This document shows, piece by piece, positions 7,183 to 26,269 of a stretch of 64,000 nt of DNA. The notes beneath the pieces were generated by a model. That model made no database searches and was not told the origin of the DNA. It saw nothing but the letters and a program-made list of their open reading frames with translations. The position numbers and the translations under genes were made by a program. The stretch spans positions 32,001 to 96,000 of the forward strand of contig SHMW01000004.1 in the NCBI GenBank assembly GCA_008080735.1, in the 5' to 3' direction. Position 1 is the first letter of the stretch. The number at the start of each line of letters is the position of its first letter. Source of the stretch: Promethearchaeota archaeon (GTDB taxonomy: Archaea; Asgardarchaeota; Lokiarchaeia; Sigyniarchaeales; SOKP01).

Positions 7183-8592
7183 TTACTCTTCTTCTGGCTC
7201 AAAGCGGGTAAGCTCTAAGATGTAGTCCTCTGAGGGTTTCTCTTGGACATCAAGAAGATCGTATTTATCGATCATCTCGAGAATACCCAACACTTCCATG
7301 CCATGCTCGTACAATTCATTCGCATCTGACAGATTTCTCCAGCAGAACGGACATTCCGTTGTCAAGATATCTGCACCCACGGCATTCGCTTCGTCACATC
7401 GTAAGCTCGCAGTTCTGAGTGAGAAATCAGGATAACCTGCTCGGACTCCACCGCCCGCACCGCAGCACATCGAATTCATCTTAATACGATACATCTCTTG
7501 GAATTCAATACCCACGTCTTCTTCCAATTGCCTTAAGATGGTTCTGGGTTTATCAAACCATTCCTCGAGCTTCTGATCAAGCTTTCGAATATCGAACATT
7601 AAGTTCTTGCTCTGATCAATTAATTCTTGCTCGAAATCCACTCCAAAGTGTCTCCCAGTGTGGCAAGGGTCGTGGTATGTGACCTTTTTGCCTTTTAATT
7701 CTTTGTTCGCTTTGAATTTGATCTTTCCATCCTTAATCAGTTTGGCAATCAGTTCGAACGCGTGAAGAGTCTCAAATGGGAGATCCTCATCTTCGCTCAT
7801 CCATTTCGGATAATCGATGGTAAAGGTTCTGTAGCATCCCGCACATGAGAAAAAGACCTTCTTTAAGTTCTTGAAGCTTTCAAGGTTCTTGTTCATAAGT
7901 TCTTGGGCAGTATCTACAGCGCCTACTCTGAAGAACGGACTTCCACAGCACACTTCATCGGAAATTAAGGTGAAATTGATTCCAAGCTTCTCGAAGATCT
8001 TACATGTTGCCTCGGCAATGTTTTTCTGACGATAGCTCGCGGTACAACCTACATAATAACCGATCGTTGCGTCCTTGTTGTCAATGTATTTTTCTAATCC
8101 CGCATCTTTGGCCCATTGGAATCTCTCGCCCGCCTTACCACCGTATGGGTTGTTTAATTCCTTTACTAATCTATCGACTAATTGATGTTTGTCGATCATC
8201 GGTACTCCTGCTTCTACACACGCAGCTCGGAGAGATTCGATAATATCGACGGTTGGAACCTTGTTTTCGCATTGCGCAGAACACATACCGCATGTAATAC
8301 ATGGCATGATGACATCTCGAACCGACTCGGAAAATTCCAAATCACCGCTCAAAATTGAACGCGCAATCCAGATTTTTCCGGCATTCCAAAATGCTTCCCA
8401 TCCGTATTCTATCCCTGCTGGACAAGAGTCCACCATACCTTCATACAGAACGGTTTTTTGTTTCCCTTCATATTCACCAATACCCTTTTGGCTTGGTTTA
8501 CCAGAATATGCGAATCGGCATGCTTTACAATGGATACATCGGAAGACATCATTTTTGAGTTCTTGTAATCTTTCCATTCCAGTTTTTGACAT
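7183..8592 (-). CDS. HdrD/GlpC/GlcF-like Fe-S oxidoreductase (ferredoxin plus two CCG domains)
   Basis: CIHCKAC..CP, CITCGMCSAQC, GC, CCG, CAGC, YHDPCH, CCGAGGG, ECPFC. Confidence 0.9.
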   Translation of the reverse strand: MSKTGMERLQELKNDVFRCIHCKACRFAYSGKPSQKGIGEYEGKQKTVLYEGMVDSCPAGIEYGWEAFWNAGKIWIARSILSGDLEFSESVRDVIMPCITCGMCSAQCENKVPTVDIIESLRAACVEAGVPMIDKHQLVDRLVKELNNPYGGKAGERFQWAKDAGLEKYIDNKDATIGYYVGCTASYRQKNIAEATCKIFEKLGINFTLISDEVCCGSPFFRVGAVDTAQELMNKNLESFKNLKKVFFSCAGCYRTFTIDYPKWMSEDEDLPFETLHAFELIAKLIKDGKIKFKANKELKGKKVTYHDPCHTGRHFGVDFEQELIDQSKNLMFDIRKLDQKLEEWFDKPRTILRQLEEDVGIEFQEMYRIKMNSMCCGAGGGVRAGYPDFSLRTASLRCDEANAVGADILTTECPFCWRNLSDANELYEHGMEVLGILEMIDKYDLLDVQEKPSEDYILELTRFEPEEE

Positions 8593-8618: not shown

Positions 8619-10133
8619 TTATGGTAGAGCTAATCTACCTGGATGCATTATCATATTAGGATCAACAAGCTTTTTGAAAGCCCTCAAATATTTCCAGTAC
8701 ATTGCTGCATCATAGTACGCTTGAATATGGATATATGGATCTGGTCTGTAATTTAACCAGCCTTGCTTTAATCCGTATTCTGTGGTTTCTCTGTTCAGAT
8801 CTTGGACTTTTTCGAACTCCTTCGGGTCTGTGCTGTCGAAACAGATGATTGGCATACAAATCGCTTGGCGACATCGCTCGATAGACGCAATCCACATTTC
8901 CAGGTGCATCTTGAGGTAAGATGCGATAACTGGTGGAAAGTCGTATTTCTCCATCGCGGCATTATACATCTCGGCGAAGTGAGCACATTCATTCCATGGT
9001 GTGTACCACGTAATAAATAGGAAGCCCGCTTCCCAGAAGCTATACGGAATCGCTATTTTATTCGGTTTCTTCATTCTGCTCTCGATCTGCTTCGGATGTA
9101 ATTCCCACGGTCGCATCGCATCACCGTCTTTCGCTCGATTGGCAGCATAATCCTTACAATGGTTATTAATAGTATCAACAACATGCTCTAACTCTTTCTC
9201 TGATTGTGCCCAGCATTCCCAGTTCATCCACCACTCCGGAATACCAATCTTCTCAAAGAAAGCATATTCGTGAGGAATCTTATCTTTCGGCCATCGAGTC
9301 ATGACTAAGGGATAATTTCCCCCTTGTACCATAACGGTATTGTGAGCAACGCCAAATTCTTTCATACCTAATTCGAGCGTGACATCCTGCATATCATATG
9401 GGTTTGACATACCCCATGCGACCACAGTTTTTGCGTCTGGATGAGGATAAATCTTGACAGCAGCTTTCGTGACAACTCCTAATGCTCCTTGGGAGCCCAT
9501 CAAAAAGGACCACATGTCAGGCCCCAAACCATATTTATAGAACGGTTTTGCGCCTGGAAGAGCCCAAGAGCCAGTTTTTACGACATCACCATTTGGGAAC
9601 ACAATCTCGGCGCACATGAAATTGTCGCCTTGAGGTCCGACCGATGATGTATATAAGGAAAACCCTCTGTCAATCGCATCGCCCATAACGGTCGCCGCGG
9701 GAGGAGCTCCATCCGCGATTGGAGGTGCCCAATCAGGGTGGTTCTTATGCATATATGCCCAGAGCTGCCCGTTCGTGACGCCTGGTTCAATGATCGCATA
9801 ACGATTATCTTCATCGATTTCCAGAATTCTGTCCATCCGTCCTAAATCGAGCATAACGCCCGCTGGTTTAATAGTCGGGCATGCAAACCCTCCGGAGAGT
9901 CCCGCTGAAATGGGAGAGACGGCGATCTTCTCATCAGAACAGTATAAGAGAATCTTTCTGATTTCTTCGACGTATTTGGGTCGCAGTACGACATCAGGAA
10001 TCTGACTTTCCAAGCCCATGACGGATTTTGCGAGGTAGGACGCGGTGATGGCTTCATCCATCGTGGCGTATTCCTTCCCGACGATACCCTCGAAGGCTTG
10101 GAGGTCTTTTTCGGTTGGTGCTTTATAACTCAT
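8619..10133 (-). CDS. FAD-binding oxidoreductase (GlcD/VAO-PCMH family); contains a putative in-frame 30-nt intron
   Basis: PDVVLRP, LDLGRMDRILEID, IEPGVT, GSQGALGVVTKAAVK, DPNMIMHPG; 494 aa if 8898-8927 is removed. Confidence 0.85.
   Translation of the reverse strand: MSYKAPTEKDLQAFEGIVGKEYATMDEAITASYLAKSVMGLESQIPDVVLRPKYVEEIRKILLYCSDEKIAVSPISAGLSGGFACPTIKPAGVMLDLGRMDRILEIDEDNRYAIIEPGVTNGQLWAYMHKNHPDWAPPIADGAPPAATVMGDAIDRGFSLYTSSVGPQGDNFMCAEIVFPNGDVVKTGSWALPGAKPFYKYGLGPDMWSFLMGSQGALGVVTKAAVKIYPHPDAKTVVAWGMSNPYDMQDVTLELGMKEFGVAHNTVMVQGGNYPLVMTRWPKDKIPHEYAFFEKIGIPEWWMNWECWAQSEKELEHVVDTINNHCKDYAANRAKDGDAMRPWELHPKQIESRMKKPNKIAIPYSFWEAGFLFITWYTPWNECAHFAEMYNAAMEKYDFPPVIASYLKMHLEMWIASIERCRQAICMPIICFDSTDPKEFEKVQDLNRETTEYGLKQGWLNYRPDPYIHIQAYYDAAMYWKYLRAFKKLVDPNMIMHPGRLALP
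8898..8927 (-). other. putative BHB/BHL-type mRNA intron, 30 nt, in frame
   Basis: mRNA CA-CCAG-UU^A-UC-GCAUCUU-ACCUC-AAGAUGC-AC-CUGG-AA^A-UG: 4-bp central helix CCAG/CUGG, 3-nt bulges, perfect 7-bp hairpin; splicing gives P-P-V-M-W. Confidence 0.7.
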
Positions 10134-25238: not shown

Positions 25239-26269
25239 CTACTTTTCTAATAATTCTAATCTATCTTTCTCTTCCTCTCTTTTGATTCGTAATTGGAAAT
25301 AACGTCTAAAATTTGCAACATCTCTGCTCATTGCCATTATCTTGACTTCTCTTTCCAGTAAATAGTCGATAAGAGGGAGTAAATTTTCCTCGAAATCTTC
25401 TAAAAATACCTCGACTACATCATTACCTACTCGAGATACTTCTTCACAATGCTCAAAATCCGCTATTATATCAATGATCTCTCCTGTGAGGTTTTCAATC
25501 GATAATCTCGCTAGTAATCCATTGCTTGGTAGAGAGGAAATTAAATTATGGGGGGTATCGAAATCAAGTAATTTTCCTTTCCTTAAGATTGCGGTCTTAT
25601 CACAGACAAGTGCCGCCTCTAAATCATGTGTGATGATAAACATTGTAGTCCCTAGTTTTCGGTTTAATTTCTTAAGATAATTAAGGATATCATAACGCTT
25701 ATTGGCGTCTACACCTTTTATCCAAATTAATTGAGATAATTAATTTGTGTGGTAGGTTCATCTAAAAATAAGACGCCTGGATTATGAATAAGCCCTATAG
25801 CCATTGAGACTCTCTTTTTTTCTCCTCCACTAAGACTTTTTAGTGGGTTTTTCCATGTATCTTCGGGAATATCAAGTATAGAAAATAACTCTCTAGCACG
25901 TTTTCTTGCGTCCTTTTTTGTCATCCCGTAATTTGATCCGAATATTTCTACATTAACTAGCGGGGAAAGTTCATAATAGAGATTTAGTAATTCTAACTGT
26001 GGAACATAACCAATATTACTTAATATCTCAGAGTGATTTCTTTTCTTAGCAGGATTCAGACCAGTGACCATTATATCACCTGACCAATTGTTTTTCTTGA
26101 TTTGACAAGTTAGAACTCTAATTATAGTTGTCTTTCCAGCTCCAGATATTCCAAATAATCCAATTAATTCCTTTTTTTTAACATTGAAAGATACATTATG
26201 AATAATTTGAGAATCACCAAAAAACACATTAAGATTCTCAACATCAACAGATACTTGATTTAAAATCAA
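25239..26269 (-). CDS. ABC transporter ATP-binding protein interrupted by a putative 32-nt intron (join 26269-25749, 25716-25239; 332 aa)
   Basis: Exon 1 GISGAGKTT, LSGGE, LFLDEPTT; exon 2 GVDANKRYDILNYLKKLNRKLGTTMFIITHD; joins track ORFs 25727..26269 and 25239..25643. Confidence 0.9.
25717..25748 (-). other. putative BHB-type mRNA intron, 32 nt, stop-containing and frameshifting
   Basis: mRNA ACC-UACC-AC^A-CAAAUUAAUU-AUCUC-AAUUAAUUUG-GAUA-AA^A-GGU: 10-bp perfect hairpin, central helix UACC/GAUA (one C-A mismatch), two 3-nt bulges, exon helix ACC/GGU. Confidence 0.85.

What the first reader, a model, noticed from the sequence alone, without database searches (positions are those of the whole stretch)
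8898..8927. Hidden in-frame 30-nt BHB/BHL intron in an FAD oxidoreductase
Seen: the codons for IASYLKMHLE form GCAUCUU-ACCUC-AAGAUGC (7 perfect bp). They are bracketed by a perfect central helix CCAG/CUGG, bulges UUA and AAA, and exon pairing CA/UG. The two pairs next to the 5' bulge are mismatched, so the motif is a relaxed BHL form. Canonical cuts (UU^A, AA^A) remove exactly 30 nt and give FPPV-MWIASIERC. Because the frame is preserved, gene callers would not notice it. Inference: a second mRNA intron, which implies such introns are under-counted.
Basis: partly seen in the sequence, partly recalled or inferred. Interest (0 to 1): 0.85.

Follow-up and report, generated by a model that had tools for sequence, protein, structure and literature searches.

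The report
Hidden in-frame tRNA-type mini-intron
A 30-base structured insert in an Asgard archaeon's flavoenzyme gene has the shape cut by the tRNA-splicing enzyme and is missing at exactly the predicted cut sites from almost all relatives, so it is most likely an mRNA intron that gene finders cannot see because it keeps the reading frame open.

Summary
On the minus strand, 8898-8927 forms a 7-bp hairpin between a 4-bp helix (CCAG/CUGG) and two 3-nt bulges.

The motif alone is not significant: seven comparable in-frame hits lie in this window. The comparative evidence is what supports it.
- The 10 residues IASYLKMHLE are absent, at exactly the predicted junction, from 24 aligned homologs. In the order, 126 genomes carry the gene, and only this genome and one congener have a match long enough to hold the insert.
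- The same gene in relatives carries 28-34 nt inserts at 17 or more other positions. Most break the frame or add stops.
- 11-13 of 15 tested sites fit the same splice register (P about 1e-8 to 1e-10). Removing the inserts restores one clean ORF.
- About a third of the insert lengths are multiples of three. Half of the in-frame sites lack stops, so roughly one in five is "hidden".
- The genome encodes an alpha/beta splicing endonuclease pair and RtcB.

Splicing of this copy is inferred, not shown. Its only two substitutions between species are synonymous, so translation of unspliced mRNA is not excluded.

The scan had already noted frame-breaking mini-introns in other genes of this genome. I found only cbf5 published as an archaeal mRNA intron of this type.

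The parts
8619..10133 (-). Host gene: FAD-binding oxidoreductase of the VAO/PCMH flavoprotein superfamily. The unspliced ORF is 504 aa; the spliced product would be 494 aa.
   Evidence: ORF. PF01565 at E 1e-20. PDB relatives are p-cresol methylhydroxylase, eugenol oxidase and D-lactate dehydrogenase-like flavoenzymes. The spliced product is 94.5% identical to an intron-less ortholog with no internal gap.
8898..8927 (-). The 30-nt insert (proposed BHB mini-intron), codons for IASYLKMHLE, in frame and without a stop.
   Evidence: Absent from 24 aligned homologs. Only G000 and G003 of the 126 gene-bearing genomes of the order have a match long enough to hold it. The G003 copy differs at 2 nt.
8930..8933 (-). 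5' strand of the central 4-bp helix (exonic CCAG).
   Evidence: Pairs 4/4 with 8900-8903 in the canonical register. Also paired in the MFE fold.
8927..8929 (-). 5' bulge UUA. The predicted cut lies between 8928 and 8927.
   Evidence: Register analysis. The first bulge base is U, whereas nearly all of the 23 sister intron instances have A.
8906..8924 (-). Intron hairpin: 7 perfect base pairs and a 5-nt loop. It is set off from the central helix by a 2x2 mismatch (8925-8926 against 8904-8905).
   Evidence: In G003 one stem A-U becomes G-U, so the pair is kept.
8900..8903 (-). 3' strand of the central helix (intronic CUGG).
8897..8899 (-). 3' bulge AAA. The predicted cut lies between 8898 and 8897.
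   Evidence: The MFE fold prefers a 5-nt bulge (8895-8899) with a shifted outer helix.
8891..8896 (-). Exon-2 side of the outer helix. UG pairs with CA at 8934-8935; alternatively UGGA pairs with UCCA at 8934-8937.
7183..8592 (-). Downstream partner gene: CCG-domain and 4Fe-4S protein (GlcF/HdrD-like). It is context only and not part of the intron.
   Evidence: PF02754 and PF13183. The same neighbour follows the orthologs.

Best explanation
The 30 nt at 8898-8927 are a bulge-helix-bulge (tRNA-type) mini-intron inside the coding sequence of a flavoenzyme gene of a Loki-type Asgard archaeon.

Proposed mechanism:
1. In the pre-mRNA the last exon bases (CCAG) pair with the intron's 3' end (CUGG). 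This presents one 3-nt bulge on each strand, next to a 7-bp intron hairpin.
2. The heterotetrameric (alpha-beta)2 splicing endonuclease cuts after the second base of each bulge (UU^A and AA^A).
3. RtcB joins the exons. The intron is probably released as a small circle.

The product is a 494-aa enzyme with the short helix-to-strand turn that all relatives have. Because the insert is 3n long and has no stop, unspliced mRNA would still encode a full-length protein with a 10-residue extra loop. That is why gene callers miss the intron.

Shown here: the anatomy, the exact ortholog gap, membership of a large class of sister inserts that must be removed from RNA, and the presence of the enzymes.

Inferred: that this copy is actually cut and ligated in vivo, and how efficiently.
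For: 1. Exact gap. Homologs lack precisely the 10 residues, and the nucleotide gap coincides with the canonical cut register: 4/4 central pairs, outer 2, inner 7 bp. The composite score is reached by about 1% of random positions, even when the best of 15 shifts is taken.

2. Sister inserts. Orthologs from genomes and metagenomes carry 28-34 nt inserts at 17 or more other positions of this one gene.
- Excluding the finding itself, 11-13 of 15 sites have a perfect 4-bp helix in the same register within 2-3 nt of the alignment gap. The null rate is 0.10-0.13 per site, giving a binomial P of 1e-8 to 1e-10.
- Most sites break the frame or carry stops. Removing them at the predicted cuts restores a single ORF with no internal gap. 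One example is a metagenome copy with 5 inserts and 11 stops.

3. No selection for frame. Only 6 of 19 site/length combinations are 3n, and 3 of the 6 in-frame sites carry stops. The class is therefore not selected for translation, and a hidden fraction of about 1 in 5 is expected.

4. A second hidden in-frame insert (33 nt, in two species) differs at 4 nt, all at unpaired positions, and 3 of the changes are non-synonymous. It evolves as RNA, not as protein.

5. Flank conservation. Between the two carriers of this insert, four-fold sites are saturated (0.62). Yet the 12 exon codons flanking the insert are the only stretch of the gene without a single difference. Intron-less pairs show 3-6 differences in 9 of those codons (397-405). 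This points to constraint or co-transfer at the RNA/DNA level.

6. Enzymes. The genome has two EndA paralogs that are 28% identical. In the alignment one keeps Tyr, His and Lys at the places I recall as catalytic and the other does not; this is read by eye. It also has two RtcB genes. Asgard EndA is reported as the broad-specificity (alpha-beta)2 type with the L1 loop (PMC5829648).
Against: - No transcript or peptide data exist, so splicing of this copy is not shown.
- The only two substitutions between the two carrier species are synonymous third-position changes. I estimate about a 5% chance of that if the sequence were untranslated. The insert is far more conserved (2/30) than neutral sites, which is what a translated, constrained peptide would show.
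- The first 5' bulge base is U, where nearly all sister introns have A.
- The two pairs next to the 5' bulge are mismatched.
- The MFE fold prefers a 5-nt 3' bulge, and the fold z-score is modest.
- The insert sits in a loop between a helix and a strand, so a retained insert could be tolerated.
- The motif alone is common by chance.
Confidence: 0.7

Rival explanations
1. Exonised or retained insert. The 30 nt arose as a mini-intron (or resembles one), but in this genome it is no longer removed, or only partly. It is translated as a 10-residue surface loop under purifying selection.
For: - It is in frame and stop-free in both carrier species.
- Both substitutions are synonymous, and there are 0 changes at 20 first and second codon positions.
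- The 5' bulge base deviates from the class, the inner pairs are mismatched, and the 3' bulge is less stable.
- The insert lies in a loop, and both structure models keep the flanking helix and strand.
Against: - The loop is a tight 6-residue turn predicted with pLDDT about 90 in the intron-less protein. No other aligned homolog or ortholog has an insert at this position, and no other genome of the order has a match long enough to hold it.
- Synonymous sites of the flanking exon codons, which form the splice motif, are uniquely frozen. Protein-level selection does not explain that.
- Sister in-frame inserts carry stops or evolve as RNA.
- In the congener the same transcript also carries a 29-nt frame-breaking insert before the invariant C-terminus. 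That mRNA must be processed anyway.
Confidence: 0.2
2. An ordinary lineage-specific 10-codon insertion whose hairpin and flanking pairing are coincidence.
For: Motifs of this quality occur hundreds of times in frame in this genome's ORFs, including a false one in the same gene.
Against: - The indel boundaries were fixed independently by the alignment and fall on the canonical register (about 1% by chance).
- The size (30 nt) and architecture match 17 or more sister inserts in the same gene that cannot be coding.
- The flanking synonymous sites are frozen.
Confidence: 0.05
3. A translational bypass element: ribosomes hop over the insert, as in phage T4 gene 60 or the yeast mitochondrial 'byp' elements (this comparison is from my own knowledge).
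For: Short hairpin-forming inserts of about 30 nt, of any length modulo 3, in otherwise intact genes resemble byp elements. One sister site has a 5-nt direct repeat at both ends.
Against: - Here the take-off codon (GUU) and the triplet before the resume codon (GAA) do not match.
- Of the eight insert copies (six sites) tested for sliding, only the two copies at the C-terminal site can slide by 3 nt or more.
- The feature shared by the class is the exon-intron 4-bp helix with two bulges, which bypassing does not require.
Confidence: 0.03

Closest known systems
BHB intron of the cbf5 (pseudouridine synthase) pre-mRNA in Desulfurococcales and Sulfolobales (Watanabe 2002; Yoshinari 2006; Yokobori 2009, PMC2738675)
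   Same: It is a protein-coding gene interrupted by a short insert whose exon-intron junctions fold into a bulge-helix-bulge. It is removed by the tRNA splicing endonuclease of hetero-oligomeric type, and its presence among relatives is patchy (gain and loss).
   Different: - A different phylum (Asgard, Loki-type) and a different gene.
- In frame and stop-free, so invisible to annotation.
- One of 17 or more positions in a single gene family, and one of many in the same genome, rather than a single conserved site.
- Splicing is not yet shown experimentally.
Non-canonical and relaxed (hBH, HBh', BHL) tRNA introns of archaea with (alpha-beta)2 EndA, including the heavily interrupted tRNA genes of Asgard archaea (PMC5829648; bioRxiv 10.64898/2026.10.13.758758)
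   Same: The same motif geometry: a 4-bp helix, 3-nt bulges and a cut after the second bulge base. The small size, tolerance of mismatches beside a bulge, the same enzymes, and many independent gains are also shared.
   Different: [quoted passage not shown] The tRNA paper, searched for 'protein-coding', 'mRNA' and 'cbf5', gave no report of introns in protein genes.
Frame-breaking mini-introns noted earlier by this scan in other genes of the same genome (e1-5636347 in this window; e1-5636666, e1-5636246, e1-5636845, e1-5636851)
   Same: The same genome, the same size class (28-37 nt) and the same proposed mechanism.
   Different: Those inserts betray themselves by stops or frameshifts. This one does not and needed ortholog comparison. 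Those notes are AI notes. I re-read the sequence of only one of them.

Membership tests
Archaeal BHB (bulge-helix-bulge) intron | [quoted passage not shown] | tested here: met
   CCAG/CUGG pairs 4/4, and the bulges UUA and AAA are in the canonical register. Caveat: the MFE fold prefers a 5-nt 3' bulge.
Archaeal BHB (bulge-helix-bulge) intron | Flanking helices h (exon-exon) and h' (intron-intron) directly abutting the bulges (strict hBHBh' form) | tested here: not met
   The outer helix is only 2 bp before a mismatch. The two inner pairs next to the 5' bulge are mismatched, followed by 7 bp. It therefore belongs to the relaxed (BHL-like) forms, as do several sister introns.
Archaeal BHB (bulge-helix-bulge) intron | The insert is absent from the mature RNA or product, and homologs lack exactly the segment between the cuts | tested here: met
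   The comparative half is met: 24 aligned homologs lack exactly these residues, and no other genome of the order has a match long enough to hold the insert. The mature RNA itself could not be tested.
Archaeal BHB (bulge-helix-bulge) intron | Cleavage by EndA and ligation by RtcB | not testable with these tools
   Only the genes could be checked. There are two EndA paralogs, one of which looks catalytic and the other not, and two RtcB genes.
Archaeal BHB (bulge-helix-bulge) intron | Evolves under RNA-structure rather than protein constraint | tested here: inconclusive
   The one stem change keeps the pair, and the exon flanks are frozen at synonymous sites. However, both changes are synonymous, and the unpaired bases are also conserved. 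A sister in-frame intron clearly evolves as RNA.
Translational bypass (byp/gene 60-type) element | Matching take-off and landing codons flanking the skipped segment | tested here: not met
   GUU against GAA at this site. Of the eight insert copies (six sites) tested, only the two at the C-terminal site have a direct repeat of 3 nt or more.

The most novel reading that the evidence does not exclude
Both forms are made. The in-frame, stop-free mini-intron is spliced only in part of the transcripts, so one archaeal gene yields two full-length protein isoforms (with or without a 10-residue loop). On this reading, hidden endonuclease-type introns are a route by which Asgard proteins gain loop insertions (exonisation). 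This would be a prokaryotic counterpart of intron retention and alternative splicing.
Probability: 0.2. Interest if true: 0.9.

Novelty: new variant of a known kind. Interest (0 to 1): 0.8.

Why it matters
If these inserts are spliced, Loki-type Asgard archaea, the closest prokaryotic relatives of eukaryotes, process many mRNAs with the tRNA-splicing machinery. In the papers I could search, that is reported for only one archaeal gene (cbf5).

This finding adds a practical point. Roughly one mini-intron in five is expected to be in frame and stop-free. Such introns are silently translated in public protein sets. Examples are this gene's 504-aa model and the database protein P0015, which contains a translated 33-nt insert. 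Counts based on broken ORFs therefore underestimate these introns, and some lineage-specific loops in Asgard proteins may be artefacts.

It also gives a directly testable case of possible intron retention in an archaeon.

Tried and rejected
- **Motif-only genome scans.** A permissive scan and a refined scan (A-first bulges, 26-38 nt) could not separate hidden in-frame introns from chance. Sense and mirror counts are nearly equal for in-frame hits. Only frame-breaking hits with 100 or more open codons on each side show an excess: 143 loci in the true register against 80 in the mirror. Many of those are gene boundaries, so I give no firm genome count.
- **Repeat test.** The insert with its flanks (71 nt) matches nothing else in its own genome, so this copy is not a repeated mobile element.
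- **Loop word.** A loop word shared by several sister introns is not enriched in this genome.
- **Metagenome scan.** It used a peptide spanning the insert-exon junction and returned no further carrier of this insert.
- **Structure models** with and without the insert. They show a disordered extra loop against a tight turn, which does not decide between splicing and retention.
- **An 11-residue insert in another ortholog.** I first read it as a genuine protein insertion used as a negative control. Re-reading with a 2-nt shift showed that it also fits the motif and restores the consensus sequence.
- **tRNA scan of the window.** None found.

Full report
**What is there**

The finding lies in a minus-strand gene, 8619-10133. 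It encodes 504 aa with a PF01565 FAD-binding domain of the VAO/PCMH flavoprotein superfamily. A CCG/4Fe-4S partner gene follows it. The closest homologs carry names of Promethearchaeota/Lokiarchaeota, so the organism is a Loki-type Asgard archaeon.

Read in mRNA sense, 8898-8927 are the ten codons for IASYLKMHLE.
- exon CCAG pairs with intronic CUGG;
- the bulges UUA and AAA lie 3' of that helix on each strand, which is the canonical geometry;
- there is a 7-bp hairpin with a 5-nt loop;
- two mismatched pairs lie beside the 5' bulge;
- the exon-exon helix is short.

The predicted cuts remove exactly 30 nt. The MFE fold reproduces the hairpin and the central helix. However, it prefers a 5-nt 3' bulge, and its z-score is only about -2.

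**Is the motif more than chance?**

On its own, no. A scan of the whole 4.1-Mb genome finds about 800 in-frame, stop-free hits of comparable quality inside long ORFs on the sense strand and about 720 on the antisense strand. Seven lie in this window. One of them is at 9011 in the same gene, in a segment that every homolog conserves. A reader finding such a motif by eye would be wrong most of the time.

**What makes this one real**

- All 24 aligned homologs (45-94% identity) lack exactly the ten residues and read FPPV-MWIAS. Most of the closest database homologs are 494-496 aa long.
- At the nucleotide level the gap coincides with the canonical register. The other placements that give the same deletion pair 0/4 or 2/4 in the central helix.
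- Of 154 genomes of the order, 126 carry the gene. Only this genome and one congener (G003) have a match long enough to hold the insert.

**A class of sister inserts**

The orthologs revealed far more than expected.
- G003 has the same insert. It also has a second in-frame 30-nt insert and a 29-nt insert just before the invariant C-terminal HPGRLALP. That motif is restored only if the 29 nt are removed.
- A genome of another genus has three inserts (34, 32 and 31 nt). Between the first two, the most conserved segment of the protein is read in the wrong frame.
- In all, 79 metagenome loci and further genomes gave 28-34 nt inserts at 17 or more positions in this single gene.

Leaving the finding itself out, 11-13 of 15 sites have a perfect 4-bp exon-intron helix in the same register within 2-3 nt of the alignment gap. 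The null rate is 0.10-0.13 per site, giving a binomial P of 1e-8 to 1e-10.

Removing the inserts at those cuts restores one ORF with no internal gap in every full-length copy. One copy has five inserts and eleven stops when unspliced. The insert near codon 43 recurs in several species with different hairpins but the same junction helix.

I see no reading of frame-breaking, structure-conserving inserts in an otherwise conserved gene other than removal from the RNA.

**Why hidden ones are expected**

Insert lengths show no preference for multiples of three: 6 of 19 site/length combinations are 3n. Of the six in-frame sites, three carry in-frame stops and three do not. About one in five is therefore invisible to gene finders, close to the neutral expectation.

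One of the other hidden inserts (33 nt) is translated in a public protein. Between two species it differs at four unpaired bases, and three of those changes are non-synonymous. It behaves as RNA.

**Evidence specific to this copy**

*For RNA-level selection or co-transfer.* Four-fold sites between the two carriers are saturated (0.62). Yet the twelve exon codons flanking the insert are the only stretch of the gene without any difference. Intron-less pairs show 3-6 differences in nine of those codons (397-405).

*For translation.* The insert differs at only 2 of 30 positions. Both changes are synonymous third-position changes, and the unpaired bases are conserved as well. By my count about 21% of possible single changes are synonymous, so two out of two has roughly a 5% chance if the insert is untranslated.

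*Other points.* The first 5' bulge base is U, where nearly all sister instances have A. The structure models place the ten residues in a disordered extension (pLDDT about 36). In the intron-less ortholog the same position is a tight six-residue turn with pLDDT about 90. This does not decide the matter.

**Machinery**

The genome has two EndA paralogs with both Pfam domains, 28% identical to each other. In the alignment one keeps Tyr, His and Lys at the places I recall as catalytic and the other does not; this is read by eye. It also has two RtcB genes. Asgard EndA has been described as the (alpha-beta)2 type with the L1 loop, which confers broad specificity for relaxed motifs (PMC5829648).

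**Verdict**

Origin as a BHB mini-intron is very likely. Splicing of this copy in vivo is likely, at about 0.7.

The rivals are:
- a retained or exonised insert, about 0.2;
- coincidence, about 0.05;
- translational bypass, about 0.03. The take-off and landing triplets do not match here, and of the eight insert copies (six sites) tested only the two at the C-terminal site have a direct repeat of 3 nt or more.

**Relation to what is known**

Five searches of the paper library found only cbf5 of Crenarchaeota as an archaeal mRNA intron of this type (PMC2738675). A 2026 preprint covers Asgard tRNA introns; searched for 'protein-coding', 'mRNA' and 'cbf5', it gave no report of introns in protein genes.

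This scan had already noted frame-breaking mini-introns in other genes of this genome, including an ABC ATPase in this window. I re-read that one. It fits the same register, with one mismatch in the central helix.

What this finding adds is the stop-free in-frame case, the evidence that one gene family is a hot spot with 17 or more positions, and an estimate of the hidden fraction.

Noticed in passing
window 25717-25748 (minus strand): A 32-nt insert splits the Walker B region of an ABC ATPase gene; the scan had noted it earlier. In the register used here it has a 3-bp exon helix, a central helix with 3 of 4 pairs and a 10-bp hairpin that starts directly after the bulge.
   Followed up: partly
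L004 (G003, same genus): about 1621-1650 and the 29 nt before the last five codons: The congener's copy of this gene has three inserts: the same one as here, a second in-frame stop-free 30-nt insert (IRKGKPLLRE), and a 29-nt frame-breaking insert before the invariant C-terminus.
   Followed up: yes
L087 (metagenome contig Ga0209977_10023344): One ortholog carries five mini-inserts (32, 31, 28, 29 and 33 nt). Unspliced it has 11 stops; spliced it gives a clean 494-codon ORF.
   Followed up: yes
L014 and L106/L112 (G014; protein P0015): A 33-nt in-frame stop-free insert is translated in a public protein model as an 11-residue Cys-containing loop. The two copies differ only at unpaired bases, mostly non-synonymously.
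   Followed up: yes
L064, L087, L027 and L105 (hairpin loops of inserts at different gene positions): Several inserts at unrelated positions share a similar hairpin-loop word (GCAUUUCGC or a close variant). Two others, in L004 and L020, share a G-rich/C-rich stem. This hints at families of related, possibly mobile, mini-introns. The word is not enriched in this window's genome.
   Followed up: partly
table, genus g11 (for example G061, G065, G068, G100, G107, G108, G109): Many species show an open frame of only about 454 aa for this gene. This is consistent with the frame-breaking insert near codon 43, which I verified in three of them (G068, G100, G107) and in G059 of genus g5. It implies long-term retention of that insert.
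   Followed up: partly
window 9011 region (minus strand, same gene): An in-frame 27-nt motif hit with a 7-bp stem and a 3-bp outer helix lies in a segment conserved in all homologs. It is a clear false positive of the motif.
   Followed up: yes
L111 (G117:C11): Another position in the gene (about nt 1121) carries a 30-nt in-frame insert with a TAA stop and a near-perfect canonical motif (9-bp inner helix).
   Followed up: partly
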